A stretch of DNA of 64,000 bases from a virus: the IMG/VR virus record IMGVR_UViG_3300045988_170943, positions 64,001 through 128,000 of that record. The stretch is one strand, 5' to 3'. How positions within the stretch are numbered: position 1 is the stretch's first letter; every line of letters starts with the position of its first letter. Shown piece by piece: positions 20,034 through 62,598 of this stretch. The translations under genes were made by a program, and so were the position numbers. The notes under the pieces were generated by a model. It was given only the letters and a program-made list of their open reading frames with translations. It made no database searches and was not told the DNA's origin.

Positions 20034-20210
20034 ATGAGCACCAACAGTGCCAAGACTCTCGTTCATATTTCTTACGCTCTGTTCGCCATGGCTACAGTGT
20101 TTGGGGTTGCCGCCATCGTTGGCGGTCACTCCAACGCTTTTATGACTGGGTTGCTGGGGCTGGGTGGGGCTCTGTTTTACGCCAAGGCCGAGAAGACCGC
20201 CAACGAGTAG
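20034..20210 (+). CDS. small membrane protein (58 aa)
   Basis: Not in the ORF track (under 60 aa). The sequence MSTNSAKTLVHISYALFAMATVFGVAAIVGG... is hydrophobic. It lies immediately upstream of the tnpB1 element. Confidence 0.4.
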   Translation: MSTNSAKTLVHISYALFAMATVFGVAAIVGGHSNAFMTGLLGLGGALFYAKAEKTANE

Positions 20211-20214
20211 TGTC

Positions 20215-21795
20215 TATTTATACCGTCAACCAGTCAAGTTCTTGAGAGGAGGCTCAACAGAAGTGCCTAGAACCATTGTGTCGCGCACGTATCCTCGTAC
20301 ACCGTATGCTGCGTTCAGCAAGACTGGTGAGCCCTTAGATCTTGATGTGGTACTGGCTGGTATCAGGAAGGATGCTGAACTGGTTGTCCACTATGCCCTA
20401 CAAGAGATGACTGAGCATAATCTCGCTCTGGTGACCTATTTTGACAGGTTCAAGCCTGCTGAGGCAGGGCGGAGAATGGGTCTGTTTCTCCCTAGCGAGG
20501 TGAAGAAGCGGTTCAAAAGTGGGGCCTCACGACTGGAGAAGATGTTCCAGGAGCAGGCCGTGACTGCCTTACGTTCCTGGGCCACCAGATCTGGGGTTGT
20601 CTCTGGGAACTACACTGGCTACGTCTCCGCTGGCTGGAAGAGAACAGTCGGGGACTCCAGGTCAAGGGCCCTACAGCCTCGGCTCGCCCTGTCTGCTACA
20701 GATAAGCAGTACAGGCGTATGAGTGTTACACCAGAACGTATTTCTCTTGACATGGTTGTTCAGGGCCAGTGGGTGACACTGCATTTTCCTGTTCCTCCAC
20801 AACTTTTAGAGCAGGGCTGTGAGCCAGGTGTTCCAGACATCTGGGTTGACAGTCAAGGTCGAGTGATGTTTGGTCTCCATGGCATGACAGATCCTGGCAG
20901 ACCGGAGTTCTCACCCAGGTACGTCATTGGCGTGGATGTGGGGGTCACTAACCCGGCCGCCTATGTTGTCTGGGACACTGAGAAGAGGGAAATTGTCGAG
21001 AAGTCTCTGCTTGATCAGAGGGCGCGGTCTCTGCATAACAAAATCAAACGCGGGGTTAGGCAAGTGTCCTCTCTACAGAGGAAGAACCGCCCCGAGGAGG
21101 CCGTGCCCCATAGGGCGCATCTATCGAATCGGCGTAAGGAACTGAGTATCCTTGTGGCTCAGGAGGTCGCGGACGCTGCCTGGAGGTATGGTAACGCCCT
21201 GGTGGTGTTTGAGGATCTGAGCCATATCAGGAACACCATGAGGTTTGGACGTTGGTTCCGTGGCGAGGTGCATAGAAGAACACGGGACATGGTTGAGGCT
21301 GACGGTGGACGAGTGATGAAGGTGAACGCGGCGTACACCTCGAAGAGGTGTCATGTCTGTCAGTCTGATCTGGACATGAGCGACTACAGTAGCCCTGTGT
21401 GTCACTCATGCAACATCACTCATCACCGGGACGTCAACGCGGCGGCGAATATTGCCCAGCGGGCCAACGTCAAGAAGGCTTGTCAGACCAGGATGCGGCA
21501 CACCACGAAGACGAAGCGTGTCCGCCGCTCCAAGTGCCGGATAAAACCACTGAAATATCCTGGTACGAAGAACAAACCAACACCCAAGGCGCCCCAGAAC
21601 CGACCTAAGACTCATGCTCACTCGTCTCTTCCAAAGATGGAGGTGAGTAAGGGGATGTGCCCCGCAGAGTCTAGGGTTTCTGCGGTGGACCACAGGGAGT
21701 GGTTTCAGACAACCAGCGGCACGACAGTTCTAAAGGAGAACCTATCTATTGGGAATACAATAGATGTGGTTTATCCTAAGGAATAGTCATACTCT
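20215..21795 (+). mobile_element. IS200/IS605-family tnpB-only (IS1341-like) element, copy 1 (about 1.58 kb)
   Basis: The boundaries come from the limits of nucleotide similarity to copy 2. The left end begins near 'ACCGT' about 40 nt upstream of the GTG start. The right end closes with 'CTAAGGAATAGTCATAC' 9 nt past the stop codon. There is no tnpA. Confidence 0.5.
20263..21786 (+). CDS. tnpB: TnpB-like RNA-guided endonuclease (RuvC-like + zinc finger), copy 1
   Basis: RuvC-I 'IGVDVGVTNPAAY', RuvC-II 'VVFEDLSHI', a zinc finger 'CHVCQ...CHSC' and RuvC-III 'HHRDVNAAANIAQRA'. The GTG start, with SD GAGAGGAGG, is identical in position and context to copy 2; the longer listed N-terminal extension was rejected. 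Confidence 0.8.
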   Translation: MPRTIVSRTYPRTPYAAFSKTGEPLDLDVVLAGIRKDAELVVHYALQEMTEHNLALVTYFDRFKPAEAGRRMGLFLPSEVKKRFKSGASRLEKMFQEQAVTALRSWATRSGVVSGNYTGYVSAGWKRTVGDSRSRALQPRLALSATDKQYRRMSVTPERISLDMVVQGQWVTLHFPVPPQLLEQGCEPGVPDIWVDSQGRVMFGLHGMTDPGRPEFSPRYVIGVDVGVTNPAAYVVWDTEKREIVEKSLLDQRARSLHNKIKRGVRQVSSLQRKNRPEEAVPHRAHLSNRRKELSILVAQEVADAAWRYGNALVVFEDLSHIRNTMRFGRWFRGEVHRRTRDMVEADGGRVMKVNAAYTSKRCHVCQSDLDMSDYSSPVCHSCNITHHRDVNAAANIAQRANVKKACQTRMRHTTKTKRVRRSKCRIKPLKYPGTKNKPTPKAPQNRPKTHAHSSLPKMEVSKGMCPAESRVSAVDHREWFQTTSGTTVLKENLSIGNTIDVVYPKE

Positions 21796-29442: not shown

Positions 29443-30093
29443 ATGACACGTGTAAACGTCCACAACACTACCGACTGGGATCGTGTTGACTGGAGTAACC
29501 CAGATCTGACTGAAGTGGTTGTTGACATTGATGACCCATATACGGTTATCGATGGCACCGGTAGATGTGACACGAACATTGGTATCGCGGTTGTTGTTGA
29601 TTCCAGGATTGGGGTGGTGAAGAACGTGGGCCATCTTGTTGTCAAACCGCACCCCATTGTCAGATTTCATAAAGATAATCTACGCATTAAAAACTGTACT
29701 GCCGTAAACGTTAATGATGGGGTGATTGTCACTAAAGTTACTGGTTCGAATCTTTTCATGGATGGCTCATCCCTGGTGCTTGTCGCAGAGAATTGCGATG
29801 TCATGTCCATGTCCGGTGATTCTCAAATCAACAAGGCCATTGATTCTGTGATTGACTCCATGATCGATAAGTCAACTATCTGTTTCGCAGATAAGAACAC
29901 CTGTATCAAGTTGATGGAAGATATGTCACAGGTGGATCGTCTTGAAGGGCACATCCTCATGCTTGACGGGTGCGCTTGTGTCGAGAAGATGACGAATGCA
30001 GCAATTGTTGAGACAGCCAGGTGCCGTACCATCGTTCGTAACGTAGAAGACGGTTCCAAGGTGGAGGTAGCGTATGACTATTCCTTAGAATGA
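29443..30093 (+). CDS. paralog family B protein (repetitive, beta-solenoid-like)
   Basis: Shares an N-terminal W..V.W motif, degenerate ~17-residue 'V.G.A.V..V' repeats and a C-terminal 'KVEVA' with the 32970 and 49163 ORFs. Its last 16 nt overlap the tnpB2 stop region. Confidence 0.5.
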   Translation: MTRVNVHNTTDWDRVDWSNPDLTEVVVDIDDPYTVIDGTGRCDTNIGIAVVVDSRIGVVKNVGHLVVKPHPIVRFHKDNLRIKNCTAVNVNDGVIVTKVTGSNLFMDGSSLVLVAENCDVMSMSGDSQINKAIDSVIDSMIDKSTICFADKNTCIKLMEDMSQVDRLEGHILMLDGCACVEKMTNAAIVETARCRTIVRNVEDGSKVEVAYDYSLE

Positions 30094-30222
30094 ACCCCAC
30101 CCACAGTATTAGCGGATAGGTTCGCCTTTGGAATTGTCGTGCCGCTGGTTGTCTGAAACCACACATTGTGGTCCACCGCAGAAACCCTAGTGTCTGCGGG
30201 GCACATCCCCTTACTCACCTCC
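30050..30222 (-). ncRNA. putative ωRNA scaffold of tnpB2, plus a candidate guide (about 30052..30071) lying inside the 3' end of the convergent 29443..30093 CDS
   Basis: This is the same hyperconserved block as at tnpB1 (reverse complement of 30072..30222). The sequence 3' of 'GTCATAC' is unrelated to copy 1. Confidence 0.45.
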
Positions 30223-31645
30223 CTAGAAGGTGTAACAGAGGGGTGAATCTTTGGCCTGTTCTGTGGGGCCTTAGGTGTTGGTTTGTTCTTCGTACCAGGA
30301 TGCTTGAGCGGCTTTGCATGGCACTTGGATCTTCTGATGCGCTTCGTCTTCGTGGCGTGCCGTCTCCTGGTCTGGCAGGCCTTGGCATGGTTGGCTCGCT
30401 GAGCAATATTCGCCGCAGCATTCAGGTCACGGTGATGGGTGATGTCGCATGAATGGCATACGGGATTACTGTAGTCGCTCATGTCCAGGGTAGCCTGACA
30501 CACATGACACCTTTTCGAGGTGAATGCCGCGTTCACTCTGAGGACCCTACCTCCGTCGGACTCAACCATGTCCCGAGTACGCCTGTGGACCTCGCCACGA
30601 AACCAGCGGCCGAACTTCATGGTGTTCTTGATGTGAGACAAGTCCTCAAAGGAGACGATGGCATTGTCATAACGCCAGGCTGCGTCCGCGATCTCCTGAG
30701 CAATGAGGATACTCAGTTCCTTACGACGATTCGACAAGTGAGCCCTGTGAGAAACCGCTTCCTCATCCTTGCCTTTTCTCTTCAAGGATGTTACTTGTAC
30801 CTGCCCGCGCTTGATCTTGTTGCTCAGTGATCTTGCTCTTTGATCGAGTAGAGATTGCTCAACAATCTCCTTATTCTTGGTGTCCCATACCACATAGGCG
30901 GCAGGGTTGGTAACTCCAACATCTACACCAATGATATAGCGCTCAGAGAACTTTGGTCGGCCAGGATCGGTTTTCCCATGAAAACCAAACATCACACGGT
31001 TGTTCTTGTCAACCCAGATGTCTGGGACACCAGGTTCACAACCATCCTCCAACAACTGCGGAGGCACCGGAAAATACAGTACCACCCACTGACCTTGAAC
31101 AATCACCTTCAACTCAATACGATCCGACTTAACAGTCATCTCTCTATATTGCCTATCGGCAGCAGAAAGAGATAATCTAGGTTGCAGAGATGATGGTTTT
31201 GAGTCCCTAACTGTCCTTTTCCAGCCGGTAGAGACATAACCACTATAGTTTTGGTTAACGGCCCCTGCTCTGGTAGCCCAGGACCTTAGATTGGTGACTA
31301 CTTGCTCTCTGAACATACGTTCAAATCTGGAACTACCGCTCCTGAACCGCTCCTTCACCTCAACTGGAAGTTTCAGGCCCATCATATATCCTGCACCTGA
31401 TGGTTTAAGTCTGTCGAAGTAGGTCACCAGCGCAAGGTTCTGCTCGGTCATCTCCCGCAAAGCATAGTGGGCGACCAGTTCAGCATCCGCTCTGATGCCG
31501 TCCAGGACTTCCTTGAGGTTTAGAGGATCGCCACTCTTGCTGAACGCAGCATACGGTGTGCGAGGGTACGTGCGAGACACAGCGCCTCTAGGCACTTCTG
31601 GTGAACCTCCCCTCAAGGACTTGACCGGCTAACGGTGTGTGTGAT
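30072..31645 (-). mobile_element. IS200/IS605-family tnpB-only element, copy 2
   Basis: About 75% nucleotide identity to copy 1 across the ORF and about 93% in the 3' RNA module. Left-end similarity runs up to about 31636. The flanks differ completely. The right end abuts and overlaps the family B gene. Confidence 0.5.
30078..31595 (-). CDS. tnpB: TnpB-like RNA-guided endonuclease, copy 2
   Basis: The same RuvC-I/II/III and zinc-finger motifs as copy 1. The GTG start is preceded by the SD GAGGGGAGG. Confidence 0.8.
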   Translation of the reverse strand: MPRGAVSRTYPRTPYAAFSKSGDPLNLKEVLDGIRADAELVAHYALREMTEQNLALVTYFDRLKPSGAGYMMGLKLPVEVKERFRSGSSRFERMFREQVVTNLRSWATRAGAVNQNYSGYVSTGWKRTVRDSKPSSLQPRLSLSAADRQYREMTVKSDRIELKVIVQGQWVVLYFPVPPQLLEDGCEPGVPDIWVDKNNRVMFGFHGKTDPGRPKFSERYIIGVDVGVTNPAAYVVWDTKNKEIVEQSLLDQRARSLSNKIKRGQVQVTSLKRKGKDEEAVSHRAHLSNRRKELSILIAQEIADAAWRYDNAIVSFEDLSHIKNTMKFGRWFRGEVHRRTRDMVESDGGRVLRVNAAFTSKRCHVCQATLDMSDYSNPVCHSCDITHHRDLNAAANIAQRANHAKACQTRRRHATKTKRIRRSKCHAKPLKHPGTKNKPTPKAPQNRPKIHPSVTPSREVSKGMCPADTRVSAVDHNVWFQTTSGTTIPKANLSANTVGGVHSKE

Positions 31646-47172: not shown

Positions 47173-48569
47173 CAACGGGAGAGAAGGACTCACTGGGAGT
47201 ACCTGTTGCTCTGAGTGACCCAATGTTTCAGGCGTTCGCGGATACTCACCCGAGCAAGGATCTGGTTCGTTATGGGTACTACGATGACGGTGTGACCTCA
47301 CCGGACTGGGGACCTGCTACTACCCCCATCCCTGTGGGTGCTGTGTGGGCTTGTGGGGTCTCTGAGCGGCCTGCTGTGCTGGTGATGACTGGTGCCATGG
47401 ATCCGATGCACGACGGCCACGCTGAGGCCCTGGAGATAGCCAGGAGAAGGTTGGAGGGGCTGGGGGTCCAGATTGTTCACACTCACGTCATACCAGATAG
47501 TCATGTGTACGCGAGAATGAAGCGGCCTATGGGGGCTGGGAGCGATGAGGAGCGGGCCGCCAGTGTCAGGTCTTTGGGTTACGTGTGCGATGAGGACTGC
47601 ATGAGGTACCCTGGGAGACCGAACTACACGAGCATCCTCCTGCATGTCCAGCACAAGTGGCAGCAGCACGGTGTGCACCCAGTCGTATTCAACGTGGTTG
47701 GTTCAGACAACGCCCTGTTCGCTGAAGTGGCAGCAGCATACGATCCGGCCGGTTTCGGTACCGTTGTTGTGGAGACAGGCCACCAAGAAAAACCCCCCGT
47801 ACAGGAGGACGCTGGCCGGAACATCCTAGTATGCGACAGAGAAGGGCGAAAGTATGCGTCCTTGTCGTCAACCACTGTGAGAAGCGGTAACCACAGTAGT
47901 GATTTGCCTGTCATGTATATTAAAGACGACCTCGACTACTACACCACCAACAGGAAGTGCCATGACGAACTCATTAACGCACTAGAGGGCATGTTCACCT
48001 CATACGGGTACCAGGTGAAGGTCGGCCACTACCGGACACAAGTCAAAAAACTGGTCAAACAGACAGCATCCAAGCACTCCCAGGAAATAGAGAATGGTGC
48101 GATCACAGTATCCTTAGATCGACACATCCCAGCACAGGTCAGGTTCCCCATACACCGACTATTCCAGTCAGACACCCTACAGAAAATGGGGTACCTCCCA
48201 GACAGGCACCTTCAAGTACATCCAGGACAGAAGTTCATCCTGCTGGACGACGACATGGACACTGGCAACGGGATGAGATTCGTGAAACACATCATCAACA
48301 CCCAAGGTGGAGAAACCATCGGTGTTGAAACCATCTACCAGGACCCAGGGCGCGAGTTCGACGTTCTGGACGCTAGCGACGTCACCACTATTGACGGCAC
48401 AGGGCTCGTAGTCCAGTCATCTGACCTCACCATGAGCAGGATCCCCTACCTGCACACGTTCCTTGACCTGCAACGATTCTCCAGCGTGCCAGACCGTCAG
48501 AAAGAAGCGTTCACTCACCAGGTCACAAGCATTCTGAAGAGGCACAAGATCGGCACATATGAGAGGTAG
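47169..48569 (+). CDS. bifunctional nucleotidyltransferase (NMNAT-like HxGH) + type I phosphoribosyltransferase / PRPP-synthetase-like domain
   Basis: N-terminal 'VMTGAMDPMHDGH' matches the (T/H)xGH cytidylyltransferase/NMNAT motif. C-terminal 'KFILLDDDMDTGNGM' matches the PRPP-binding motif of type I PRTases/PRS. The start overlaps the nadE stop (ATGA), indicating translational coupling. Confidence 0.5.
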   Translation: MTTGEKDSLGVPVALSDPMFQAFADTHPSKDLVRYGYYDDGVTSPDWGPATTPIPVGAVWACGVSERPAVLVMTGAMDPMHDGHAEALEIARRRLEGLGVQIVHTHVIPDSHVYARMKRPMGAGSDEERAASVRSLGYVCDEDCMRYPGRPNYTSILLHVQHKWQQHGVHPVVFNVVGSDNALFAEVAAAYDPAGFGTVVVETGHQEKPPVQEDAGRNILVCDREGRKYASLSSTTVRSGNHSSDLPVMYIKDDLDYYTTNRKCHDELINALEGMFTSYGYQVKVGHYRTQVKKLVKQTASKHSQEIENGAITVSLDRHIPAQVRFPIHRLFQSDTLQKMGYLPDRHLQVHPGQKFILLDDDMDTGNGMRFVKHIINTQGGETIGVETIYQDPGREFDVLDASDVTTIDGTGLVVQSSDLTMSRIPYLHTFLDLQRFSSVPDRQKEAFTHQVTSILKRHKIGTYER

Positions 48570-53971: not shown

Positions 53972-54745
53972 CTAGTTCGCCTGCATCACAATCAGAGGCA
54001 TACGCTCCTTGCCTTCCGCAGTCGTAGCCAGGTAGATATCCATAACAGGATCTCCGCAGTCGTCAACGGCCTCCAGAATGGAGGTTCCCTGATTCTCCCC
54101 AGTTGAAGACACCCAGGATCCCTGCTGCGCGATACTCACGTCATGGATGATGATCCGCTCCTGGTATAACTTGTGGTAGCGAACCCAGGTGACAGGCTCA
54201 TGACCGTTGTTGGCGTCCTTAATAGTCAAGATACCATTCTCGCCACTGTTATCAACGAAGTGGATGCTGATCTCGTCCTCACCATCCCTGTCCACCTTGT
54301 CAACGCTGACACCAATGAGCGACTTAGCGATGGAGGACACATCACTGTCGTAGTGGGAGAACATTCGAGGGGCTGAGTAAGTCGCACAAACCCACTCGGC
54401 AGCAACACTGTTCTCATCCTGAAACTCAACATGGAGCAGGATTCTACCTTCGCTCTGCCTCAGTGACAGACGTCGCATCAAAGGATTCCAGTACACTTCT
54501 TCGACCACATGCCCTTCAAGGAGATCACTGAAGTGCTTGGTCAGAGTGATTCCCTTTGCGGAAATCTTCAGGTAACTTCCGACTGGGGTTTTGATACGAA
54601 GCAGGTCGTTACCATGCTCTTGAGTTAAAGTAACACTTTGGACTCGCCTACCGACAAGAAGTCGAGCCTCATCGTAGACAGCATCCTCTTGCTTGCCTTC
54701 TGCCATTACACTACCCTTCCTACCTGGGTGCTCAATCATTGACAC
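53972..54745 (-). CDS. paralog family D protein
   Basis: See the 53087 ORF. Confidence 0.5.
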   Translation of the reverse strand: MSMIEHPGRKGSVMAEGKQEDAVYDEARLLVGRRVQSVTLTQEHGNDLLRIKTPVGSYLKISAKGITLTKHFSDLLEGHVVEEVYWNPLMRRLSLRQSEGRILLHVEFQDENSVAAEWVCATYSAPRMFSHYDSDVSSIAKSLIGVSVDKVDRDGEDEISIHFVDNSGENGILTIKDANNGHEPVTWVRYHKLYQERIIIHDVSIAQQGSWVSSTGENQGTSILEAVDDCGDPVMDIYLATTAEGKERMPLIVMQAN

Positions 54746-54750
54746 CCGGG

Positions 54751-55020
54751 CTACTCAACCCGCTCATAGGTCTCAAAGAAGATGTCACGGCGGCAGCAAT
54801 AGTGCTCACCTCGCACACCCTCAATGACGTACCCACCAAAGGCCCCATGCATTGGACCCTCCAGTGTCGGAATCGTGATACCGCCATCCACGACCTCGCC
54901 ACCAACCCAATCAGCGACCTCCTGGGCGTTACCCTCAGTCAGTTCAACCGCTTTGATCCTCGTTGGACGCTTCTGCCAGCACTCAATCTTCATACTCTGT
55001 ACTCTTCCCCTAGATTTCAT
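54751..55020 (-). CDS. hypothetical small protein
   Basis: 89-aa ORF. Confidence 0.45.
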   Translation of the reverse strand: MKSRGRVQSMKIECWQKRPTRIKAVELTEGNAQEVADWVGGEVVDGGITIPTLEGPMHGAFGGYVIEGVRGEHYCCRRDIFFETYERVE

Positions 55021-55109
55021 TCAGGTTGCTTCTAGTTGTCAACTCAAACACATGCCTCATTTGTCTAAGTCACCTGCATCTACGTCACACAAATGGTTCT
55101 GTGATCGCT

Positions 55110-55718
55110 TTAGAGATTACCATCGATCTCGCTAATGGCTGCATTAATGTACGCTCGCACGTTGCTGATGACGTCCTCTTCGTCATCATCGAGAGGGAGT
55201 TCTCCTTCTGGGCTGACAACAACGTGTGTGCTACTGATGTCATGATCATCGAACTCGATATACCCGATGATCCTGGAGATTCCGAAAATCTCAACCTTCA
55301 TACCTTCTTCGACCTGACAAACAACAGATCGGCCTGAAATTAGACTCTTTCGGATGAAAGATTCGTCAATGTAGGTGATAAAGTACTCCATCACCTTGAC
55401 GCGAAATACATCTCGACTAATCAGCATGATAATGTCGTCAACAGGATGGATTGACGAGATGGTTCGCACACCATAGATCCCGTCTATTGTCACCTCATCA
55501 TATTTGTCAGTGATGCTGTAACTGAGTAGCGTGTCATCGTTCTCGATAGAGAAGCACCCGTACCAGTTTCCGCCAGATACCTCGATGTCACCAAAACTAT
55601 TCTCTTGAATCATGAAGGCGTCTGACACCCTAAAAATCGCATCCACCAAAGCGCTCTTGATAGGGGTGAGTCCTTCTCGGTTCTTCTTAGAGAACCTGTA
55701 GTAAGTATTGTTGCCCAT
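55110..55718 (-). CDS. hypothetical acidic protein
   Basis: 202-aa ORF. Confidence 0.5.
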   Translation of the reverse strand: MGNNTYYRFSKKNREGLTPIKSALVDAIFRVSDAFMIQENSFGDIEVSGGNWYGCFSIENDDTLLSYSITDKYDEVTIDGIYGVRTISSIHPVDDIIMLISRDVFRVKVMEYFITYIDESFIRKSLISGRSVVCQVEEGMKVEIFGISRIIGYIEFDDHDISSTHVVVSPEGELPLDDDEEDVISNVRAYINAAISEIDGNL

Positions 55719-55770
55719 GGTTTATTTTCGATCTATTCTTTCGTGTGCTGATGTTTCAGTTTCTCGGGCG

Positions 55771-56028
55771 CTACTGTTCAGGGTCGTCCCACTCGAACCA
55801 GATCCCGAGGTCATCTGTCAGGTTCCCGTCCTCGTTGAATACGTTAGAGATCCGGAAAGATGATGGAGTATCAGGGCGCTCCACAACGTCAGTGCTGTCC
55901 AGGATGCGCCGCAGTGTGTCCGTACCACCAACGAATACGTATGGGGCGTCAGACCATTCGTGTGTCATGTACGAGATGTCCCGAATCAGCACAATGCTAG
56001 TCATGCGCAGAGGAACAAAAACGCGCAC
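55771..56028 (-). CDS. hypothetical small protein
   Basis: The GTG start is preceded by the SD 'taaggag' at a 7-nt spacing. Confidence 0.4.
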   Translation of the reverse strand: MRVFVPLRMTSIVLIRDISYMTHEWSDAPYVFVGGTDTLRRILDSTDVVERPDTPSSFRISNVFNEDGNLTDDLGIWFEWDDPEQ

Positions 56029-56124
56029 AGCAACTCCTTACTACTAGCAGGTCATGTTCAGGTCAGTGCCACCATAGTACATCATCAAGAGCAACACTAT
56101 CAACCCGATTAAGCATGACACAGA

Positions 56125-56577
56125 TCACATCACATCAGGATTTCTGTAGAAGGCAATGTTTCCCTCTTCGGTCACCTGCAACTGCGGTGAGAGACCGCCC
56201 GCGTCACCGACCTGGAATACCTCAACCCGTGGACCTTGCGCACCAACACCAATCATTGACATGTGAGCAACAACAACATTACCGAAACACGAACCTACAC
56301 CTTGTAGGATTGCCTCTTTGAGCAGGGTCTTGTTCTGGAACACATCTCTCACCACGGATAGGCAGGATAAGTCAGAAACATCCACCACGCAAAACTTGAG
56401 GACAGACGAGTTGCCAGCCGAATCCTCTTCGACCTCTGTCACAACTGAAGCACTATCTTCGTTTCGAATGTTTTCGACGCGGCAGCGGATTTCGTTAGCC
56501 ACGATCTGGGCGGCCTCCATGTTTCCATTGAAGAGGACGATACCACTAATTGACGCAACATTTTCTGGCACTAGCAT
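56125..56577 (-). CDS. hypothetical protein
   Basis: 150-aa ORF. Confidence 0.45.
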   Translation of the reverse strand: MLVPENVASISGIVLFNGNMEAAQIVANEIRCRVENIRNEDSASVVTEVEEDSAGNSSVLKFCVVDVSDLSCLSVVRDVFQNKTLLKEAILQGVGSCFGNVVVAHMSMIGVGAQGPRVEVFQVGDAGGLSPQLQVTEEGNIAFYRNPDVM

Positions 56578-56583
56578 CGTCTA

Positions 56584-57246
56584 TCACAGATCCTTATCTA
56601 CTCTCATTGTGTACATGTCTCCTGAGGAGTGAATGACTCGCATTTCTCCAATGAAGTGACCTCCAGTGCCCTCCCCAAAGTCAAGGAGCGTGAACCCGTT
56701 ATCGTTCAGGCAATGCTCCACTAGGATGGATGCGTGCTCAGCGTCAGACACCCTGGCAATAGTTACTCCAGCCCGATACACCTTGCCCAGAAAGTCTTCA
56801 ATCGAGTTGGACTCTTCAAGGAAGATGCGGGCACTCCCCTGACTGTCGTGATCTGAAGCCAGCGAGATGAGTGCTATCATGGCTGCCGCAATGTCGGGCG
56901 CCGCCTCTGGGGCGAGAGGGGTATCGTCAACGGCCCATCCTTCTTCGTTCCACTCAGATGCACCCTCCCAGTAGACCAGCCACAGGTCATCCTCCTTGTC
57001 GCTGGAGTCACCGAAGATGAAGAGGTTCTGGTTCTGTCGAATAAACCTTAAAGCCCTAGTAACCGCCTGATCCACCTTGGGCGACAGGAGCCCCAGCATT
57101 GACGCTCTACCTCCGCACTCTTCAATGTCGTTGAGGTGTTTGACGAACTCGGCGGGAGTATCAGCCTGTTTCAAAGACTTCACATACCCTGAAACCTCAT
57201 TGATGTTCGAAATCACTCCTGTGCCTCCTTGTGGCGCTTCTTCCAT
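56584..57246 (-). CDS. hypothetical acidic protein
   Basis: 220-aa ORF. Confidence 0.45.
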   Translation of the reverse strand: MEEAPQGGTGVISNINEVSGYVKSLKQADTPAEFVKHLNDIEECGGRASMLGLLSPKVDQAVTRALRFIRQNQNLFIFGDSSDKEDDLWLVYWEGASEWNEEGWAVDDTPLAPEAAPDIAAAMIALISLASDHDSQGSARIFLEESNSIEDFLGKVYRAGVTIARVSDAEHASILVEHCLNDNGFTLLDFGEGTGGHFIGEMRVIHSSGDMYTMRVDKDL

Positions 57247-57249
57247 CCT

Positions 57250-57700
57250 GGCTCAGTACTTCAGGCCGAAGATGCGTTTTCGGTCATCCTTACGGAACAT
57301 CTTAGGCCGATGGAACCCGAACTTGTAAACCTCAGCACCAGTGTCGTTGGTGGCTGTGATAACACCGTCAGACAGGATGTTGTATGCTCGCTCCGCCCCA
57401 GTGAGACCCGAGATGTTGACACTCGCTGACTAGGTTGGAGATCCCCTAGAATCTAGGGTTTCTCTCACCATCATCAGCGTCGCCTCGGTTTTTATTTCCG
57501 AGGTACCGGTGTGCCCCTGGATTCTACTCAGGGCAGTGACCGGTTTCGACTGCCGCGTAACAGCCGAACTTCGCATTTCCTTTCTCTGACGAAGCAGAGA
57601 ACGCATTCTCTCTCGTGTTCGAGATGAAGGAGATGCCGCACGCAGAGCAATCTCTCTGGATGCTGAGACATCCCGGTTCAACTCAAAACCACAGGTAGTG
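57250..57700 (-). ncRNA. candidate ωRNA region of TnpB3 (structured; overlaps the low-complexity C-terminal read-through of the ORF)
   Basis: The ORF tail after RuvC-III is S/R/T-rich low complexity. Palindromes 'ccctagaatctaggg' and 'cctcgg-tttttattt-ccgagg' lie in the 180-nt gap before the next gene. Confidence 0.25.
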
Positions 57701-58962
57701 CAGGTGCCAACTCGGGTAGATGTGTTGTTTCTGGTTCTATCTCCGCAGCGAGAACAGGTTCTAGAGGTGTCTTTAGCACTCACCTTGGTTACTTTAAGGC
57801 CGTAGCGCTTAGCCGTATTCTCAATGCGACTCTGAATCTCCGCATGAGGCCAACGACCTCCCTGAGCATCCAGCCAGGACAGGTTCTCTAAAGAAACGTG
57901 AGCGTCGTTCCGATCTGCGATCTCTACTACCTGGCTGGCGATGCACTGACTGATCTCGCGCTTGATACGAGTGGCCTTAGCACTGACTCGCCTGGCTTCT
58001 TCTCTGAGAACTTGGGCGTGCTGATCTCGATTGTGCTTCTCGCAGAGGTTCGCTCGCTCGTACAGATGAGCGGCTAGATCGCGGCGTTTCTGTTCCTTCT
58101 TAACTAAGGCTCCGAGTCGTCTCTTATAGTTGGCGTGATATGGGGCAGACCTGTGCTTACTCTTAGGATCGATGACTGTAGCGACGAACGGCTCGACCTT
58201 ACCCAGATCAACACCCGTGATTATCTTGGTCTGGCTGGCATCTATTTCGTGCTCAATAGTGATGTCGAAGACGACCTGTCCCTTGTTGTTCAGGCGGATA
58301 GTTGGACGACAGATCTTACCTTCACTGAATCTCTCGCTGTTCTCTGGTAGCCTGAGATAGAGTCTGGTGAGACCATAAGTAGGCGTCTTAACCTGAACAG
58401 TGACACTTAGAGGATCGTTGTCATCTCTTGATGCTTTGGGCGCGAAGTGAGTGTCACAGACCGCCAGGTTCAGTTTAGCGCTCACGCCTGGTAGAGACGC
58501 TTTCCTTTCGCCCTTGATGTGATAACGTCTCAGGTGAGAGCAGACCATGCCACTGGTTGGTTGCGGGGCATCAGGATAGGTGTTCTTGTAATGAGATAGT
58601 ATCTGGTCCGGTTTTGTCGTGCTCGGGTGAGTACTCATTACTTGGAACAGGCCAACACTCATGGCGTACAGTTCCAGAGCACTCACTACGTTTGAGACCA
58701 GCATCTCGTTCATATTGTGCTTCTGAAACGAGAAGCCGTAGCGACTCAGCCTCTTCCTGCCCCAGGAGTTCAGAGAACCAGTCGGCCTGTCACCTTGCAG
58801 AGCCTTGATCGCTAAATCATGAAACTCACGGCTGGCAAGCACCTCTCGTTCTGACTCGGCCATCCAGGCGACCATCTGAGCCAGATCGCGTTCAACCTGC
58901 TCCACGTCAACCCCGCCGTCAGTGGTGAACCTGTGCCTGGTTACTGCGTCGTAGTACTTCAC
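57430..58962 (-). CDS. tnpB: TnpB-like RuvC/zinc-finger nuclease, distinct family (copy 3)
   Basis: RuvC-I 'ITGVDLGKVEPFVATV', RuvC-II 'VSLENLSWL', a zinc finger 'CSRCG...CTTCG' and RuvC-III 'NRDVSASREIALRA'. The GTG start is preceded by the SD AAGGAGG. The functional C-terminus probably ends before the listed stop. Confidence 0.7.
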   Translation of the reverse strand: MKYYDAVTRHRFTTDGGVDVEQVERDLAQMVAWMAESEREVLASREFHDLAIKALQGDRPTGSLNSWGRKRLSRYGFSFQKHNMNEMLVSNVVSALELYAMSVGLFQVMSTHPSTTKPDQILSHYKNTYPDAPQPTSGMVCSHLRRYHIKGERKASLPGVSAKLNLAVCDTHFAPKASRDDNDPLSVTVQVKTPTYGLTRLYLRLPENSERFSEGKICRPTIRLNNKGQVVFDITIEHEIDASQTKIITGVDLGKVEPFVATVIDPKSKHRSAPYHANYKRRLGALVKKEQKRRDLAAHLYERANLCEKHNRDQHAQVLREEARRVSAKATRIKREISQCIASQVVEIADRNDAHVSLENLSWLDAQGGRWPHAEIQSRIENTAKRYGLKVTKVSAKDTSRTCSRCGDRTRNNTSTRVGTCTTCGFELNRDVSASREIALRAASPSSRTRERMRSLLRQRKEMRSSAVTRQSKPVTALSRIQGHTGTSEIKTEATLMMVRETLDSRGSPT

Positions 58963-59264
58963 AGGCTCACCTCCTTCTTGACGAGTTGATTAGCATAGAT
59001 GTGTGTATTGTAACACAGAGTGAGTGATGCTACAAGTCAAGGAATTGTAAAGGACTAGTGTGACTGCGGGCAACAGTGTTGCGGTACGCCTAATCAAAGA
59101 AGCCCTCAACGTATGGTATCCGCGATTCATCAGTAAGTACCTTTTCGTCATACTTCCTTCTCCTTCGGATTGGTCTCTTGGTTGGCTCTGCTAGTTGTTC
59201 TCTCCAACAATAGTGGAGGTTCCCGCCCTTGTTCAGAGGTAGTGGTCTTCCCCGTTTCCCCTTG

Positions 59265-60041
59265 TTACTGCCTGCCACCCTTAGTTGCATGTGACTCCAT
59301 CCTGTCGAGCGCAGCAATGTGTGACTCTGATGTGAGTAGCATTGAGTCCCACCACAAGGTGATGCGCCCATAGTTCACGTCGAACAGATGGTCTGGGCGA
59401 CCCTGGTTCGTGTCCCTGGTGACGCCGATCCCACGGAAGGCGCCTGTTATCGCCCTCCACAAATCTAGGTAGAAGGTGTTGTCGGTGGTCTCAAAGTCAA
59501 TGAAACTCCCGTCAGGGCCAGTCACTCCCACCTCGACATGGTTGATGTCATACTTGGAGTCATTACCAACGATCTTAACCCATGCCACACCCCCACCCCA
59601 CCCTTTAACAAGGGTCCCACCAACTTTATACAGAGATAAGTAAAAACCAGGATTGCCGGATAGGTACGAGATGAGATACTGAGACACTTGAGCCTCTGCC
59701 CTCATGCCCTTGAAAACCGCCTTCAACTCCTCATCGTCACCATCAATCGCTCGCCTACTAGAGAAGTAGGTGCGTCCGTCAAAAAGTTTCGCTGGCACCT
59801 TGAATACCCAACTGTCACCAAATGTGTGAATCGAGAACTCAGGCGTGTCAATAGCGAGATCATATTTGTTAGTAGAACCTTCAAGGCTTGTTGCTACCTG
59901 AACTATGTTACATCCGGCATCAAATGCCATCTCTACAGCGAGACGAATCCTAGGGTTGTCAATTTCATCTAGATCGCTGGAAAACCGGTAGTAGTTCTTC
60001 TCTGGGAAGTACCTTGTCATGGAAATCTTAGAACCGTCCAT
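59265..60041 (-). CDS. hypothetical protein
   Basis: 258-aa ORF. Confidence 0.45.
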   Translation of the reverse strand: MDGSKISMTRYFPEKNYYRFSSDLDEIDNPRIRLAVEMAFDAGCNIVQVATSLEGSTNKYDLAIDTPEFSIHTFGDSWVFKVPAKLFDGRTYFSSRRAIDGDDEELKAVFKGMRAEAQVSQYLISYLSGNPGFYLSLYKVGGTLVKGWGGGVAWVKIVGNDSKYDINHVEVGVTGPDGSFIDFETTDNTFYLDLWRAITGAFRGIGVTRDTNQGRPDHLFDVNYGRITLWWDSMLLTSESHIAALDRMESHATKGGRQ

Positions 60042-60181
60042 CTTGATTATTCTCTCGTCTTTCTTTTTTAGTGGCTCTATCTGAATTACTATAGCACACC
60101 AGCGCCAGTTCTCGGAAGTAGCATCGTCTGTTACTCACATCACAGCGTAGAAGAGAGCACAAACATGAGGTGCCTTAACAT

Positions 60182-60613
60182 CTAGGTAGCATCGCCCGCC
60201 TGGGAGAGCAGTTCCTCTGGATGCATCTTCTGCAACGTGCTCAACATGCCTCCCCGGTTGAGTGCAACCCCTTGATCGTCCATATTCAGGACGAACTCGA
60301 TGAACACCTTACCTGGGACGCGATCTCGGACCTCAGTCACCACAAAAATAGGGCACCTTTGGGAAGTGTACGACTCCCAGAGAAACAGGAACGGCTCGTC
60401 GTCTTCAACAACGCCGGTCATGTCTCCATCACAGAGGTCTTCGAGCAGTGACCGGAACCCGCATCCATCCTTACCGTCAAAGTCGCCACGATAGTCACAA
60501 AGACTACGCAATATGGACACGCACGTGCGTGGGTCTTTATCGACGCTGAAACCCAATATGACATTGTTGCTGTCATCTGTTTGGTGAGTCAGGAAAATAT
60601 GCACCTCAGCCAC
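60182..60613 (-). CDS. hypothetical acidic protein
   Basis: 143-aa ORF. Confidence 0.45.
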   Translation of the reverse strand: MAEVHIFLTHQTDDSNNVILGFSVDKDPRTCVSILRSLCDYRGDFDGKDGCGFRSLLEDLCDGDMTGVVEDDEPFLFLWESYTSQRCPIFVVTEVRDRVPGKVFIEFVLNMDDQGVALNRGGMLSTLQKMHPEELLSQAGDAT

Positions 60614-60622
60614 TTTCTGAAC

Positions 60623-61258
60623 CTACCTCTGACCTTCTGGCCGCCAATAGGTGATGCCCTCGCCCGCCATCTCCGCTAGAGTCTCACTCGCCTGGTAGCG
60701 GGCACTCGTGTCGTAAAGATCCCACTGGGCAGCAGACGCGCCCTGCTGAGAGCCCCTTTCGCGGACAGGCCGCCCCACAGCGAGTACGCCAGCGTGAAGG
60801 TCGATAAACACCCCAGGAAGGGTACTCTCACCCCACCCAATGGCAGGGGCGTCCACCGCAGTCAGCCCGCCCCTACCAGCGACACGCACACCCTCCAGCA
60901 GAACAGCAGGAAAAACAGGGGTGCCCTCATCATCATTAATGTTTTCAGGTTCCATCTCCCAGACCTTGGAGCACAGGCCGCCAATGAGATGATCCATAAG
61001 GTCTGTCGAGCCCCGAACCCCAGTCAGGACGTCCTGGTAGCGTTCAAACACTGACTCCACCAGTCCCCGCAGAAGGCGAATCATCTCAACCCTCTTCGTG
61101 CTGCACAGGTAAACCGTCTGGTACGTAATCTCAACCTCACCACCAACATTGCGTACCACGTTCGAGACGAAAGAGACCGCCACACTCTCCAAGGGCCTTG
61201 TGCTCACATCCTCCTTGAAGTCCACGCCAAGAAGTCGCCCAATTAGATGCCTCATCAT
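60623..61258 (-). CDS. hypothetical protein
   Basis: 211-aa ORF. Confidence 0.45.
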   Translation of the reverse strand: MMRHLIGRLLGVDFKEDVSTRPLESVAVSFVSNVVRNVGGEVEITYQTVYLCSTKRVEMIRLLRGLVESVFERYQDVLTGVRGSTDLMDHLIGGLCSKVWEMEPENINDDEGTPVFPAVLLEGVRVAGRGGLTAVDAPAIGWGESTLPGVFIDLHAGVLAVGRPVRERGSQQGASAAQWDLYDTSARYQASETLAEMAGEGITYWRPEGQR

Positions 61259-61389
61259 CCTCTACACCTCCCCAGGTAGGGCCACTTACAACTCAACCTA
61301 TACTTTACGACACGGAGGTGACATGTGTCAACAAGCATATTGTGCTCTATGTCACACATACGAATCTCGTCACCTCACCGCCCACTGGG

Positions 61390-61418
61390 TTGCCTCACAC
61401 TTCCGCCTAGTGTATGCT
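61390..61418 (+). promoter_or_regulatory. sigma70-like promoter TTGCCT-N17-TATGCT
   Basis: Read directly from the sequence, upstream of the 61474 gene. Confidence 0.4.
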
Positions 61419-61473
61419 GGACGGCAGGAAACAGGTCAACTACACCAACAAGCAACACGGACAGGAGTCATAG

Positions 61474-62598
61474 ATGAGTGGCCTTACTACCAAAGTACGA
61501 GACATCTTCAAGGCGCGTGTAGCCAAGAAGTCATCGTACACCCCTGAGGACAAGGGGATCACCTACCTGTCACGTCTTCCAAAGAGCATGGTTCAGGCGA
61601 TCCTGGGCACAGGGCTATGTCAAAGTTCAACAGTGGATCGCCAGTTTCTTCTGCCTCCCTTCTTCTGGTCTGTCTCGGGTGATGTCAACATTGAGCCTCT
61701 GGGGATGCTGTTCGGGATCTCTGACGGCAGGATCGTTGTGGACGCATTCAACATGCATGACAACAGCGATGAAGGCAACAACGTCACTTGCTATGCCAGC
61801 CGACACTTCTACCTTCCAGTGGGCAAGTATCTGGTGTATATGGCGGCTGAGAGCAGCCGGTTCGCGCCGCACCCAACTAGGGGTGATGTTGATGCTGTTG
61901 TCATGTCGTCGTTGTTCAAGTTGGCGGCGAAGGTGTACGCAATGTGGGCGGTCACTGCTGATGGCAGTCGTTGGCCTTACAGTTGGGATGCTAGTTGGTT
62001 CCCGCATGATGATGGGCGGACTGAACTTCTTCTTAAGCGTGTGAGTGGTCACGACCTGGTTTACGGATTCTCTGTTGACACCGACCTTGTAGAGGCCACT
62101 CAGGATAATGGTGACGTGAAAGACATCCTGTCGGTCTCACTGAAGAAGAGACACATCGATGCCGAATCTCCTAATGAGTTTCAGTACATTGTGGATCGCA
62201 TCGCTAACCCCTTGATTGAAGTGGGGTACGACGTCAACAGTCACATCACCTATGACGACGAGGTGGTCCAGGAAATCGTCGTCAACATTGATGTAACCAC
62301 CAGCACCACGGCATGGAATGGGGCTTCAAGTTGTAGGTTCTTCCAGGATCTTGAAACCATCCTCCGTGAGGTCACCCCCGCAAGACATAAGCCCTTGTTC
62401 ATCCTTGAAAGCGAGTCGAACCAAGAGCATTCTGCCCACCCTCAAGATCTTACCCTGTGCCCACTTGAAGCGATTGGCAGCAAGGATGATAGTGTCGCAC
62501 GATCCTACTATGATGATGCGATGAAACTGGCAGAAGAGACCATCCGATCCAGTGTCACCAGCAAAAATAGGTACCATAGTAGCGGCACCATCCAGTAA
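61474..62598 (+). CDS. hypothetical protein
   Basis: The SD 'caggagtcatag' precedes the ATG. Confidence 0.55.
   Translation: MSGLTTKVRDIFKARVAKKSSYTPEDKGITYLSRLPKSMVQAILGTGLCQSSTVDRQFLLPPFFWSVSGDVNIEPLGMLFGISDGRIVVDAFNMHDNSDEGNNVTCYASRHFYLPVGKYLVYMAAESSRFAPHPTRGDVDAVVMSSLFKLAAKVYAMWAVTADGSRWPYSWDASWFPHDDGRTELLLKRVSGHDLVYGFSVDTDLVEATQDNGDVKDILSVSLKKRHIDAESPNEFQYIVDRIANPLIEVGYDVNSHITYDDEVVQEIVVNIDVTTSTTAWNGASSCRFFQDLETILREVTPARHKPLFILESESNQEHSAHPQDLTLCPLEAIGSKDDSVARSYYDDAMKLAEETIRSSVTSKNRYHSSGTIQ

What the first reader, a model, noticed from the sequence alone, without database searches (positions are those of the whole stretch)
57250..58962. Third, unrelated TnpB-like nuclease with an S/R/T-rich read-through tail and a palindrome-rich downstream region
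The RuvC-I/II/III motifs and the CxxC...CxxC finger are intact, but this copy shares no similarity with copies 1 and 2. After RuvC-III the ORF continues for about 100 low-complexity residues (RTRERMRSLLRQRKEMRSSAVTRQSKPVT...). That pattern is typical of a reading frame running through an ωRNA-encoding DNA segment. The 180-nt gap before the next gene contains 'ccctagaatctaggg' and 'cctcgg-N9-ccgagg'. Three TnpB-family nucleases from two families in 64 kb with no transposase suggests domesticated RNA-guided nucleases rather than selfish insertion sequences.
Basis: partly seen in the sequence, partly recalled or inferred. Interest (0 to 1): 0.6.

Follow-up and report, generated by a model that had tools for sequence, protein, structure and literature searches.

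The report
Transposase-less IS607-type TnpB insertion sequence
This is an ordinary selfish insertion sequence, a TnpB nuclease gene whose 3' end doubles as its guide RNA, sitting inside a gene of a roughly 420-kb phage-like genome; it is not a domesticated nuclease.

Summary
The ORF at 57430..58962 (-) is a real 510-aa TnpB/Cas12f-like nuclease with an intact RuvC triad and zinc finger. It is the only gene of a discrete 1,654-bp element (57419..59072).

About 85 diverged copies in related 0.2-0.55 Mb phage-like contigs share DNA only from about 110 nt upstream of the start codon to 11 nt past the stop. They occupy 52-55 different sites. Ten sites have seamless empty alleles. The window's copy splits a 222-aa gene that is intact in a close relative.

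Insertions lie 3' of an ACTGT-like pentamer, with no target duplication, and GT ends both the pentamer and the element.

From about codon 455 the codon periodicity disappears, the last 49 residues are predicted disordered, and the last ~180 nt form a covarying multi-helix RNA. Both palindromes lie inside the ORF tail, not in the gap.

The "domesticated" idea does not hold. Relatives at 37-39% identity follow an IS607 serine transposase, and a close relative of this genome carries an autonomous IS607.

Verdict: a non-autonomous IS607-family TnpB/ωRNA element, a new member of a known kind. One oddity is that copies at different sites are never more than 85% identical.

The parts
59073..59077 (-). 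Target-derived pentamer ACTGT (transposon/target-adjacent motif, TAM) immediately 5' of the element.
   Evidence: Conservation across 52 unique left flanks starts exactly here: A38, C40, T38, G49, T47 of 52. The pentamer stays behind in 10 empty alleles.
58963..59072 (-). Left end: 110 nt non-coding. It carries a conserved TTGACT-22 nt-TGnTA(C/T)AAT promoter-like motif and a GGAGGTG ribosome-binding site.
   Evidence: DNA homology to all copies begins here. The promoter assignment is inferred; the simple scan did not call it because of the 22-nt spacing.
57430..58962 (-). tnpB ORF, 510 aa, GTG start, TAG stop.
57433..57636 (-). S/R/T-rich C-terminal tail (residues 443-510). Residues 462-510 are predicted disordered.
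   Evidence: Composition; pLDDT below 50 for 462-510; loss of codon periodicity; not conserved outside the 50%-identity cluster.
57419..57598 (-). Inferred ωRNA scaffold (about 180 nt, 9 helices) overlapping the ORF tail and ending at the right end. The 5' limit is approximate.
   Evidence: RNAalifold gives 55 pairs. 97.8% of cells are paired against 31-45% in slid controls, with 118 double-sided changes against 46±10 in shuffles. Single-sequence fold -92 kcal/mol, z -6.4.
57483..57503 (-).
   Evidence: Three pairs show compensatory changes (CG35/GC23/AU14; GC39/AU35; AU24/GC23/UA5), and the loop is variable.
57444..57458 (-).
   Evidence: The closing pair is UA55/CG11; the other pairs are invariant.
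57419..57429 (-). Right-end terminus TCAGCGAGTGT. It ends in the same GT dinucleotide as the TAM.
   Evidence: Conserved in 55 unique sites, with the flank random from the next base.
57399..57418 (-). Inferred guide (CAACATCTCGGGTCTCACTG), which is the flanking DNA. The 20-nt length is assumed.
   Evidence: It follows the pentamer GCTGT in the empty allele of L020 and is part of a 54-nt stretch that is 100% identical there. It is unique in the window.
57253..57418 (-).
   Evidence: Collinear with the L020 ORF 4326-4994, apart from a 66-nt in-frame deletion.
59078..59151 (-). 5' stub of the interrupted gene (ATG at 59151). About 400 nt of the gene are missing.

Best explanation
Window 57419..59072 (- strand) is a non-autonomous, transposase-less member of the IS607 family of insertion sequences. 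It consists only of a short left end with its own promoter-like motif, a tnpB gene, and a right end.

Shown:
- It is a discrete unit.
- It is inserted 3' of an ACTGT-like pentamer, without target duplication, inside a phage gene.
- Related genomes carry the exact empty site.
- The TnpB catalytic residues are intact and under purifying selection.
- The last ~180 nt are constrained as nucleic acid, not as protein, and form a covarying multi-helix structure.

Inferred from the established behaviour of TnpB elements (Karvelis 2021, PMC8612924; Nety 2023, PMC10278001; Meers 2023, PMC10055086; Žedaveinytė 2023, PMC10690162):
- The tnpB transcript's 3' part is processed into an ωRNA.
- The scaffold of that ωRNA is the tail/right-end region, and its guide is the ~16-20 nt of flanking DNA (CAACATCTCGGG...).
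- TnpB-ωRNA cuts any allele that has pentamer plus guide uninterrupted, that is, the empty site. This could be the site left after excision or the site in a co-infecting relative.
- Homologous repair from a filled copy then reinstalls the element (homing/retention).
- New-site insertion would need a serine transposase supplied in trans, for example by the autonomous IS607 found in this phage lineage.
- The S/R/T-rich tail is mostly incidental translation of the ωRNA scaffold.
For: Unit and ends:
- blastn of the region against 18 and then about 100 related loci aligns only from about 115 nt upstream of the start to 11 nt past the stop. The flanks are unrelated.
- There are 52 unique left and 55 unique right flanks.

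Empty sites:
- The window's own site is empty in L020...CACAACGCTGT|CAACATCTCGGG....
- Nine further sites have seamless empty alleles with no target duplication.
- The site lies inside an intact 222-aa ORF in L020.

IS607 signature:
- GT ends the pentamer in 49 and 47 of 52 sites, and ends the right end in 55 and 47 of 55. This parallels the GG of TGGG/...UCGG in CboIStron (PMC10690162).
- The left end shows no hairpin (fold z -0.5).
- Relatives P0124 (39% identity, 8e-78) and P0126 (37%) overlap by 8 nt the end of a ~200-aa MerR-HTH+Resolvase gene. That protein scores 124 bits against NCBIfam transpos_IS607, cutoff 110.
- The 394-kb contig that holds the window's empty site also holds a tnpA (117.5 bits) followed by a TnpB, as a 2.27-kb unit.
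- Right-end termini resemble each other across the three element types.

Protein:
- D252/E359/D431 and the zinc-finger cysteines are conserved.
- 64 of 80 complete copies are 509-510 aa, and 77 of 80 keep the motifs.
- The AF2 model (pLDDT 84.5) matches Cas12f/TnpB folds.

RNA.
Against: - No transposase lies inside the element or in the 64-kb window. Presence of tnpA in this exact genome was not shown.
- Copies at different sites are only 71-85% identical (median 77%), against a median of 96% for same-site copies. So there is no sign of recent transposition, which is atypical for an active IS.
- No close relative was found in 185,579 bacterial and archaeal genomes, although that scan relied on exact peptide patterns.
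- NCBIfam IS607_TnpB does not hit this protein, and guided_TnpB is below its cutoff.
- No Rfam family matches, including RAGATH-18, which IS607 TnpB guide RNAs derive from in PMC11061315.
- ωRNA expression, cleavage and homing are all inferred.
- The covarying hairpins could in principle act at the DNA level.
Confidence: 0.85

Rival explanations
1. Domesticated RNA-guided nuclease. The phage keeps several TnpB genes at fixed loci for a function of its own, and they are no longer mobile.
For: - No transposase in the window.
- Paralogues are old: at most 85% identical between sites.
- Paralogues are nevertheless almost all intact and under purifying selection.
- The family appears to be restricted to this phage lineage.
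Against: - Presence/absence polymorphism with seamless junctions at 10 sites.
- Insertion into, and decay of, a host gene.
- The guide is whatever flanks the element, and the TAM sits at the left junction.
- Decaying copies exist.
- The RuvC motifs are intact, unlike those of known domesticated TldR-type proteins (PMC10705468).
- An autonomous IS607 is present in the lineage.
Confidence: 0.06
2. IS200/IS605-type (IS1341 group) element moved as single-stranded DNA by a Y1 tyrosine transposase, not IS607-type.
For: - Insertion 3' of a specific pentamer without duplication also fits IS200/IS605.
- The right end is rich in hairpins with G·T pairs on the sense strand.
- NCBIfam IS200_TnpB gives a weak hit of 47 bits, while IS607_TnpB gives none.
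Against: - No Y1 transposase in the window.
- No left-end hairpin.
- The nearest relatives found with a transposase have a serine one, as does the lineage's autonomous element.
- The pentamer and the right end share a terminal dinucleotide.
Confidence: 0.07
3. The C-terminal tail is a functional protein domain, for example a basic nucleic-acid-binding or regulatory extension, rather than incidental translation. This reading is compatible with the best explanation.
For: - The frame stays open through the tail in about 95% of copies, including through the variable hairpin loop.
- The tail is 21% K+R.
- Residues 447-456 are modelled as a helix with pLDDT of about 78-85.
- A weak [FL]xx[FY][KR]Q...SxxT[RQ]xS pattern recurs in clusters at 30-44% identity.
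Against: - No codon periodicity from about codon 460 onward.
- Residues 462-510 have pLDDT 27-41.
- HMMER matches to other clusters mostly stop at residues 440-475.
- The recurring peptide pattern maps onto conserved RNA helix 2, which would produce it anyway.
Confidence: 0.15
4. Type V-F CRISPR effector (Cas12f) of a phage-borne CRISPR system.
For: The best sequence and fold matches among solved structures are Cas12f proteins: 8hr5 at 2e-14 by phmmer and 2.4e-14 by Foldseek.
Against: - No direct repeats of at least 18 nt, spaced at most 200 nt apart, within 54000-62000.
- No cas genes among the window ORFs.
- The unit ends 11 nt after the stop codon.
Confidence: 0.01

Closest known systems
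IS607-family TnpB/ωRNA elements, e.g. CboIStron/CseIS607 (Žedaveinytė et al., PMC10690162) and ISFba1 TnpB (PMC11061315)
   Same: - tnpB with a guide RNA overlapping the right end.
- Scarless empty sites and no target duplication.
- No terminal inverted repeats.
- The same dinucleotide ends the TAM and the right end.
- Relatives and the lineage's autonomous element carry a MerR-HTH serine transposase directly upstream of tnpB.
   Different: - No tnpA in the element, and no group I intron.
- TAM ACTGT with core GT, rather than TGGG with core GG.
- No RAGATH-18 match.
- The protein is larger (510 aa) and closer to Cas12f than to ISFba1 TnpB among solved structures.
- The host replicon is a ~0.4-Mb phage-like genome.
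IS1341-type (tnpB-only) elements of the IS200/IS605 superfamily (Altae-Tran et al., PMC10691335)
   Same: The element is a single-gene OMEGA module with conserved ends. That paper describes this as the commonest TnpB configuration.
   Different: IS1341 proper is associated with Y1 transposases and end hairpins, whereas the evidence here points to serine-transposase ancestry.
ISDra2 TnpB-ωRNA (Karvelis 2021, PMC8612924; structures 8exa, 8h1j)
   Same: - RuvC plus zinc-finger core.
- ωRNA encoded in the 3' end of tnpB and the right end.
- TAM 5' of the left end.
   Different: - Only a weak sequence match (E 1e-5).
- About 100 residues longer, with a larger N-terminal half and a 68-aa tail.
Cas12f (type V-F), e.g. 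CnCas12f1 8hr5 and AsCas12f 8j12
   Same: Size and overall fold; these are the best PDB hits.
   Different: There is no CRISPR array and there are no adaptation genes. The guide is fixed by the insertion site.
Free-standing homing endonuclease genes of T-even phages (reviewed in PMC13565253)
   Same: The proposed population behaviour: cut the allele that lacks the element in a co-infecting relative, then be copied in by repair.
   Different: Recognition is RNA-guided, the element has discrete transposon ends, and the behaviour is unproven here.

Membership tests
TnpB / OMEGA RNA-guided nuclease | Split RuvC D-E-D triad with an inserted CxxC...CxxC zinc finger (TNB domain). | tested here: met
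   D252, E359, D431, C403 and C421 are invariant; C406 and C424 are at least 90% conserved. PF07282 hits at 3.8e-16.
TnpB / OMEGA RNA-guided nuclease | Curated whole-protein model score. | tested here: inconclusive
   NCBIfam guided_TnpB scores 90.2 bits against a cutoff of 100, matching residues 210-440 only.
TnpB / OMEGA RNA-guided nuclease | Structured guide-RNA scaffold encoded in the 3' end of the gene and the right end, followed by flank-derived guide. | tested here: met
   Nucleotide-level constraint; covarying helices; fold z -6.4; the flank is random from the first base after the right end. Transcription was not tested.
TnpB / OMEGA RNA-guided nuclease | TAM at the left junction that, together with the guide, reconstitutes the empty site. 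| tested here: met
   ACTGT logo; 10 empty alleles.
TnpB / OMEGA RNA-guided nuclease | RNA-guided dsDNA cleavage. | not testable with these tools
   Needs biochemistry.
IS607 family | Serine (MerR-HTH + resolvase) transposase encoded in the element. | tested here: not met
   Only 110 nt lie between the left end and the tnpB start in all copies. This makes the element a non-autonomous derivative.
IS607 family | Phylogenetic neighbours associated with a serine TnpA. | tested here: met
   P0124 and P0126 loci; transpos_IS607 scores 124 and 117.5 bits against a cutoff of 110; autonomous tnpA-tnpB units in the lineage. Three other relatives (P0122, P0123, P0128) are solo.
IS607 family | No target-site duplication; scarless donor/empty joint. 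| tested here: met
IS607 family | The same core dinucleotide at the target/left-end junction and at the right-end terminus. | tested here: met
   GT at both.
IS607 family | No terminal inverted repeats or palindromic left end. | tested here: met
   Left-end DNA fold z -0.5. The two ends are not inverted copies of each other by direct reading.
IS607 family | RAGATH-18-type guide RNA (a subset of IS607 TnpBs). | tested here: not met
   No Rfam match at E <= 1.
IS200/IS605 (Y1) family | Y1 HUH transposase in the element, the genome or relatives. | tested here: not met
   None in the window. None was seen next to the five relatives examined. A weak tblastn test was negative.
IS200/IS605 (Y1) family | Subterminal hairpins at both ends. 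| tested here: inconclusive
   The right end has hairpins; the left end does not.
Type V-F CRISPR-Cas12f | Adjacent CRISPR array and adaptation genes. | tested here: not met
Domesticated TnpB (TldR-like or other immobile clades) | Fixed locus without transposon ends or polymorphism, often with RuvC inactivated. | tested here: not met
   The ends and empty sites are present, and the RuvC motifs are intact.

The most novel reading that the evidence does not exclude
The many old, diverged but intact transposase-less TnpB elements of this megaphage lineage may persist mainly as RNA-guided homing elements during co-infection. There are several per genome, each with its own flank-derived guide. Each would cut the empty allele of competing relatives, so that together they act as a distributed 'marker-exclusion' arsenal that also benefits the carrier phage. 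That would be a half-way state between a selfish IS and a domesticated weapon, and it would explain long-term maintenance without recent transposition.
Probability: 0.25. Interest if true: 0.6.

Novelty: new member of a known kind. Interest (0 to 1): 0.3.

Why it matters
For annotation: the ORF's last ~50 codons and the 'gap' downstream should be read as guide-RNA scaffold, right end and a broken host gene. They are not a novel protein domain or a regulatory region.

For biology: this uncultivated ~0.4-Mb phage lineage carries several families of IS607-type TnpB elements, with at least four copies of this family on single contigs. The resulting set of over 50 natural TAM/guide/empty-site triplets could be used to study RNA-guided homing between phages.

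For tools: the family offers a Cas12f-like TnpB with a predicted ACTGT TAM and a defined ~180-nt scaffold. At 510 aa it is not especially compact.

Tried and rejected
- Megablast of the region against GenBank phages found nothing, and tblastn gave only remote archaeal-virus or phage TnpBs at no more than 31% identity.
- Rfam gave no match at the gathering threshold or at E <= 1.
- No tRNAs were found in the window.
- The scan of bacterial and archaeal genomes for close relatives found none.
- I first classified the element as IS200/IS605 (IS1341 type), because of the pentamer target and the lack of duplication. I dropped this when relatives turned out to sit behind serine transposases and the left end showed no hairpin.
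It carries little weight.
- The simple promoter scan did not call the conserved left-end motif, because its spacer is 22 nt.
- I could not establish whether the window's own 418,686-bp contig carries tnpA. Look-ups of TnpA clusters returned other contigs.
- An exact scan of IMG/VR for the junction sequence found only the one empty allele already in hand.
- The CRISPR reading was rejected for lack of repeats.
Full report
**What is at the coordinates**

The - strand ORF 57430..58962 encodes 510 aa from a GTG start that lies 6 nt behind GGAGGTG.
- It hits the Cas12f1-like TNB domain (PF07282, 3.8e-16).
- It hits PHROG 506 'transposase' at 9e-27.
- It hits NCBIfam guided_TnpB at 90 bits, just under the 100-bit cutoff.
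- The catalytic Asp252, Glu359 and Asp431 and the CxxC...CxxC finger are present. They are invariant or nearly invariant in an alignment spanning relatives down to about 20-25% identity.

The window holds two more TnpB-like ORFs, at 20164..21786 (+) and 30078..31616 (-). They are 76% identical to each other. Contrary to the finding, both are detectably homologous to this one: 25-26% identity, E 6e-13 and 4e-12.

Neither is in the downstream gap.

**Genomic setting**

An identical protein is encoded on a 418,686-bp metagenomic contig. Hundreds of homologues at 75-90% identity, nearly all 509-510 aa, occur on contigs of 0.2-0.55 Mb, often several per contig.

IMG/VR files these contigs as viral. 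The window itself is mostly dark matter: 8 of 79 other ORFs hit PHROGs, among them a minor head protein, NAD synthetase and RNA ligase. GenBank phages hold no close relative. The pattern-based scan of 185,579 prokaryotic genomes also found none.

**A discrete unit at many sites**

blastn of the oriented region against the related loci aligns only from about 115 nt upstream of the start codon to 11 nt past the stop codon. The flanks are unrelated.

Among 87 left and 85 right junctions there are 52 and 55 unique flanks.
- Conservation begins abruptly at a pentamer: A38, C40, T38, G49, T47 of 52.
- Conservation ends abruptly after TCAGCGAGTGT.

All copies have the same ~110-nt left end between the pentamer and the GTG, so none contains a transposase gene.

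**Empty sites**

A 394-kb relative (L020) joins the window's two flanks directly...GGCGTACCACAACGCTGT|CAACATCTCGGGTCTCACTGGGG... The 54 nt downstream of the junction are 100% identical to the window.

Nine other insertion sites also have seamless empty alleles in other genomes. In every case the pentamer stays with the target and nothing is duplicated.

In L020 the site lies in an intact 222-aa ORF. In the window that gene is broken.
- A 5' stub remains at 59078-59151, with about 400 nt missing.
- A 3' remnant remains at 57253-57418, with a 66-nt in-frame deletion.

The element is 57419..59072, and the pentamer ACTGT is at 59073..59077.

**The tail and the RNA**

Across 72 distinct full copies, codons 1-440 show classic protein-level purifying selection. 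Pairwise column identity is 0.70-0.95 at codon positions 1 and 2, against 0.48-0.67 at position 3.

The periodicity fades over codons 441-460 (third positions 0.71). From codon 461 to the stop it is gone: third positions are 0.78-0.88, equal to positions 1 and 2. The 11 nt after the stop are 0.78-1.0.

An AlphaFold2 model (mean pLDDT 84.5) is confident for residues 1-461 and collapses to pLDDT 27-41 for 462-510.

The same DNA is strongly structured.
- The last 222 nt plus flank fold at -92 kcal/mol, z = -6.4.
- RNAalifold on 76 distinct copies predicts 55 pairs.
- A curated 51-pair, 9-helix structure is paired in 97.8% of cells, against 31-45% when partners are slid by 1-3 columns. It shows 118 double-sided changes, against 46±10 in shuffles (0 of 500 shuffles reach the observed value).

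One further covarying pair lies in the CCCTAG/CTAGGG hairpin. The other helices are conserved, with G·U pairs on the sense strand.

The scaffold is about 57419..57598 (-), and the guide would start at 57418 (CAACATCTCGGG...).

Transcription, processing and the 5' end are inferred, by analogy with ISDra2 and Cbo TnpB (PMC8612924, PMC10278001, PMC10690162). No Rfam family matches.

**Which transposon family**

A search of 1.84 billion cluster representatives finds only 18 with E <= 1e-30. Apart from a few fragments these are 470-527 aa long. Most matches stop at residues 440-475, so the tail is not conserved outside the 50%-identity cluster.

Of the five relatives whose loci could be read:
- Three are solo.
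- Two, P0124 (39% identity) and P0126 (37%), overlap by 8 nt the 3' end of a ~200-aa MerR-HTH+Resolvase gene. That protein passes the curated NCBIfam IS607-transposase cutoff, 124 bits against 110.

A homologue of that transposase (117.5 bits) is present in the megaphage lineage itself. It is directly followed by a TnpB that is 47-50% identical to window copies 1 and 2. Together they form a 2.27-kb unit with its own ends. The 394-kb contig that carries the empty allele of the window's site carries this unit as well.

TnpA clusters of at least 83% identity sit on contigs of up to 415 kb.

Further IS607 traits, as described in PMC10690162, are met here.
- Joints are scarless and there is no duplication.
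- There are no inverted or palindromic ends (left-end fold z -0.5).
- The same dinucleotide (GT) ends the pentamer and the right end.
- G never occurs at pentamer position -4. That is the one position where the right-end terminus AGTGT differs from ACTGT, which fits avoidance of self-cutting.

I therefore file the element as a transposase-less IS607-type element, not as IS605/IS1341 in the strict sense.

**Fold**

Foldseek against the PDB puts Cas12f proteins first: CnCas12f1 at 2.4e-14, followed by AsCas12f, OsCas12f and SpCas12f1. The IS607 TnpB ISFba1 scores 3e-8, in agreement with phmmer.

No direct repeats of at least 18 nt, spaced at most 200 nt apart, lie between 54000 and 62000, and there are no cas genes. 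So the protein is Cas12f-like but is not a CRISPR effector.

**Selfish or domesticated**

Everything testable points to a selfish element:
- transposon ends;
- the TAM at the left junction;
- flank-derived guides;
- polymorphic presence;
- gene disruption;
- decaying copies, namely premature stops in L017, L018 and L036 and a 127-nt scaffold deletion in L016;
- contigs that break at copies.

Lack of a transposase is the commonest state of OMEGA elements (PMC10691335).

One feature is unusual. Copies at different sites are only 71-85% identical in DNA (median 77%), while same-site copies have a median of 96%. Yet 64 of 80 complete copies encode 509-510 aa, and 77 of 80 keep the motifs.

So new-site insertion seems rare, while each copy is kept intact. 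This is what one would expect if persistence relies mainly on TnpB-driven homing and retention (PMC10055086, PMC10690162) in a recombining phage population. That step is inference, not observation.

**Verdict**

The element is a new, phage-borne member of a known kind.

Noticed in passing
window 20222-21795 (+) and 30069-31636 (-): TnpB copies 1 and 2 are also discrete transposase-less units. Their mutual homology (74% nt) starts at ACCGT... and stops 9 nt after the stop codon at ...AATAGTCATAC(T/G)CT, with unrelated flanks. Their proteins are 47-50% identical to the TnpB of the autonomous IS607 found in related contigs, and the right-end termini match (TAGTCATACGCT). The listed GTG start of copy 1 at 20164 lies outside the unit; the in-frame GTG at 20263, behind GGAGG, is the likelier start.
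   Followed up: partly
L109/L111/L112 3900-6170; L113-L119; L012 8097-8720: An autonomous IS607 (tnpA 207 aa overlapping tnpB 523 aa, unit about 2.27 kb) sits in a conserved context in the same megaphage lineage, including the 394-kb contig that holds the empty allele of the window's insertion site.
   Followed up: partly
window 57253-57418 and 59078-59151; L020 4326-4994: The gene interrupted by the element is intact in L020 (222 aa, no family hit). In the window it has additionally lost about 400 nt of its 5' part and 66 nt in-frame downstream, so it is decaying after the insertion.
   Followed up: yes
L079; L004/L014 versus L005/L009/L067; L023 versus L049: Some copies share one flank but not the other with other copies. 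This suggests recombination between element copies that rearranges the phage genome.
   Followed up: no
L015, L016, L020 empty alleles: Three of ten empty alleles differ from the filled allele within the pentamer (ACTGC, ACTAC, GCTGT), and L016 also differs in the first guide bases. This could reflect escape from cutting, but the sample is too small to say.
   Followed up: no
window 58990-59045; L109 3900-3940: The left ends of copy 3 and of the autonomous IS607 both carry TTGAC(A/T), a 22-nt spacer, then TGnTA(T/C)A(A/T)T. This may be a shared promoter or a transposase-binding feature with non-canonical spacing.
   Followed up: no
window 41930-43132 (-), 47169-48569 (+), and elsewhere in the window: The window is otherwise mostly unannotatable. 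The isolated hits are a zeta-toxin/AAA kinase-like protein, a cytidylyltransferase-like plus phosphoribosyltransferase protein, NAD synthase, a radical SAM protein, RNA ligase and a minor head protein.
   Followed up: no
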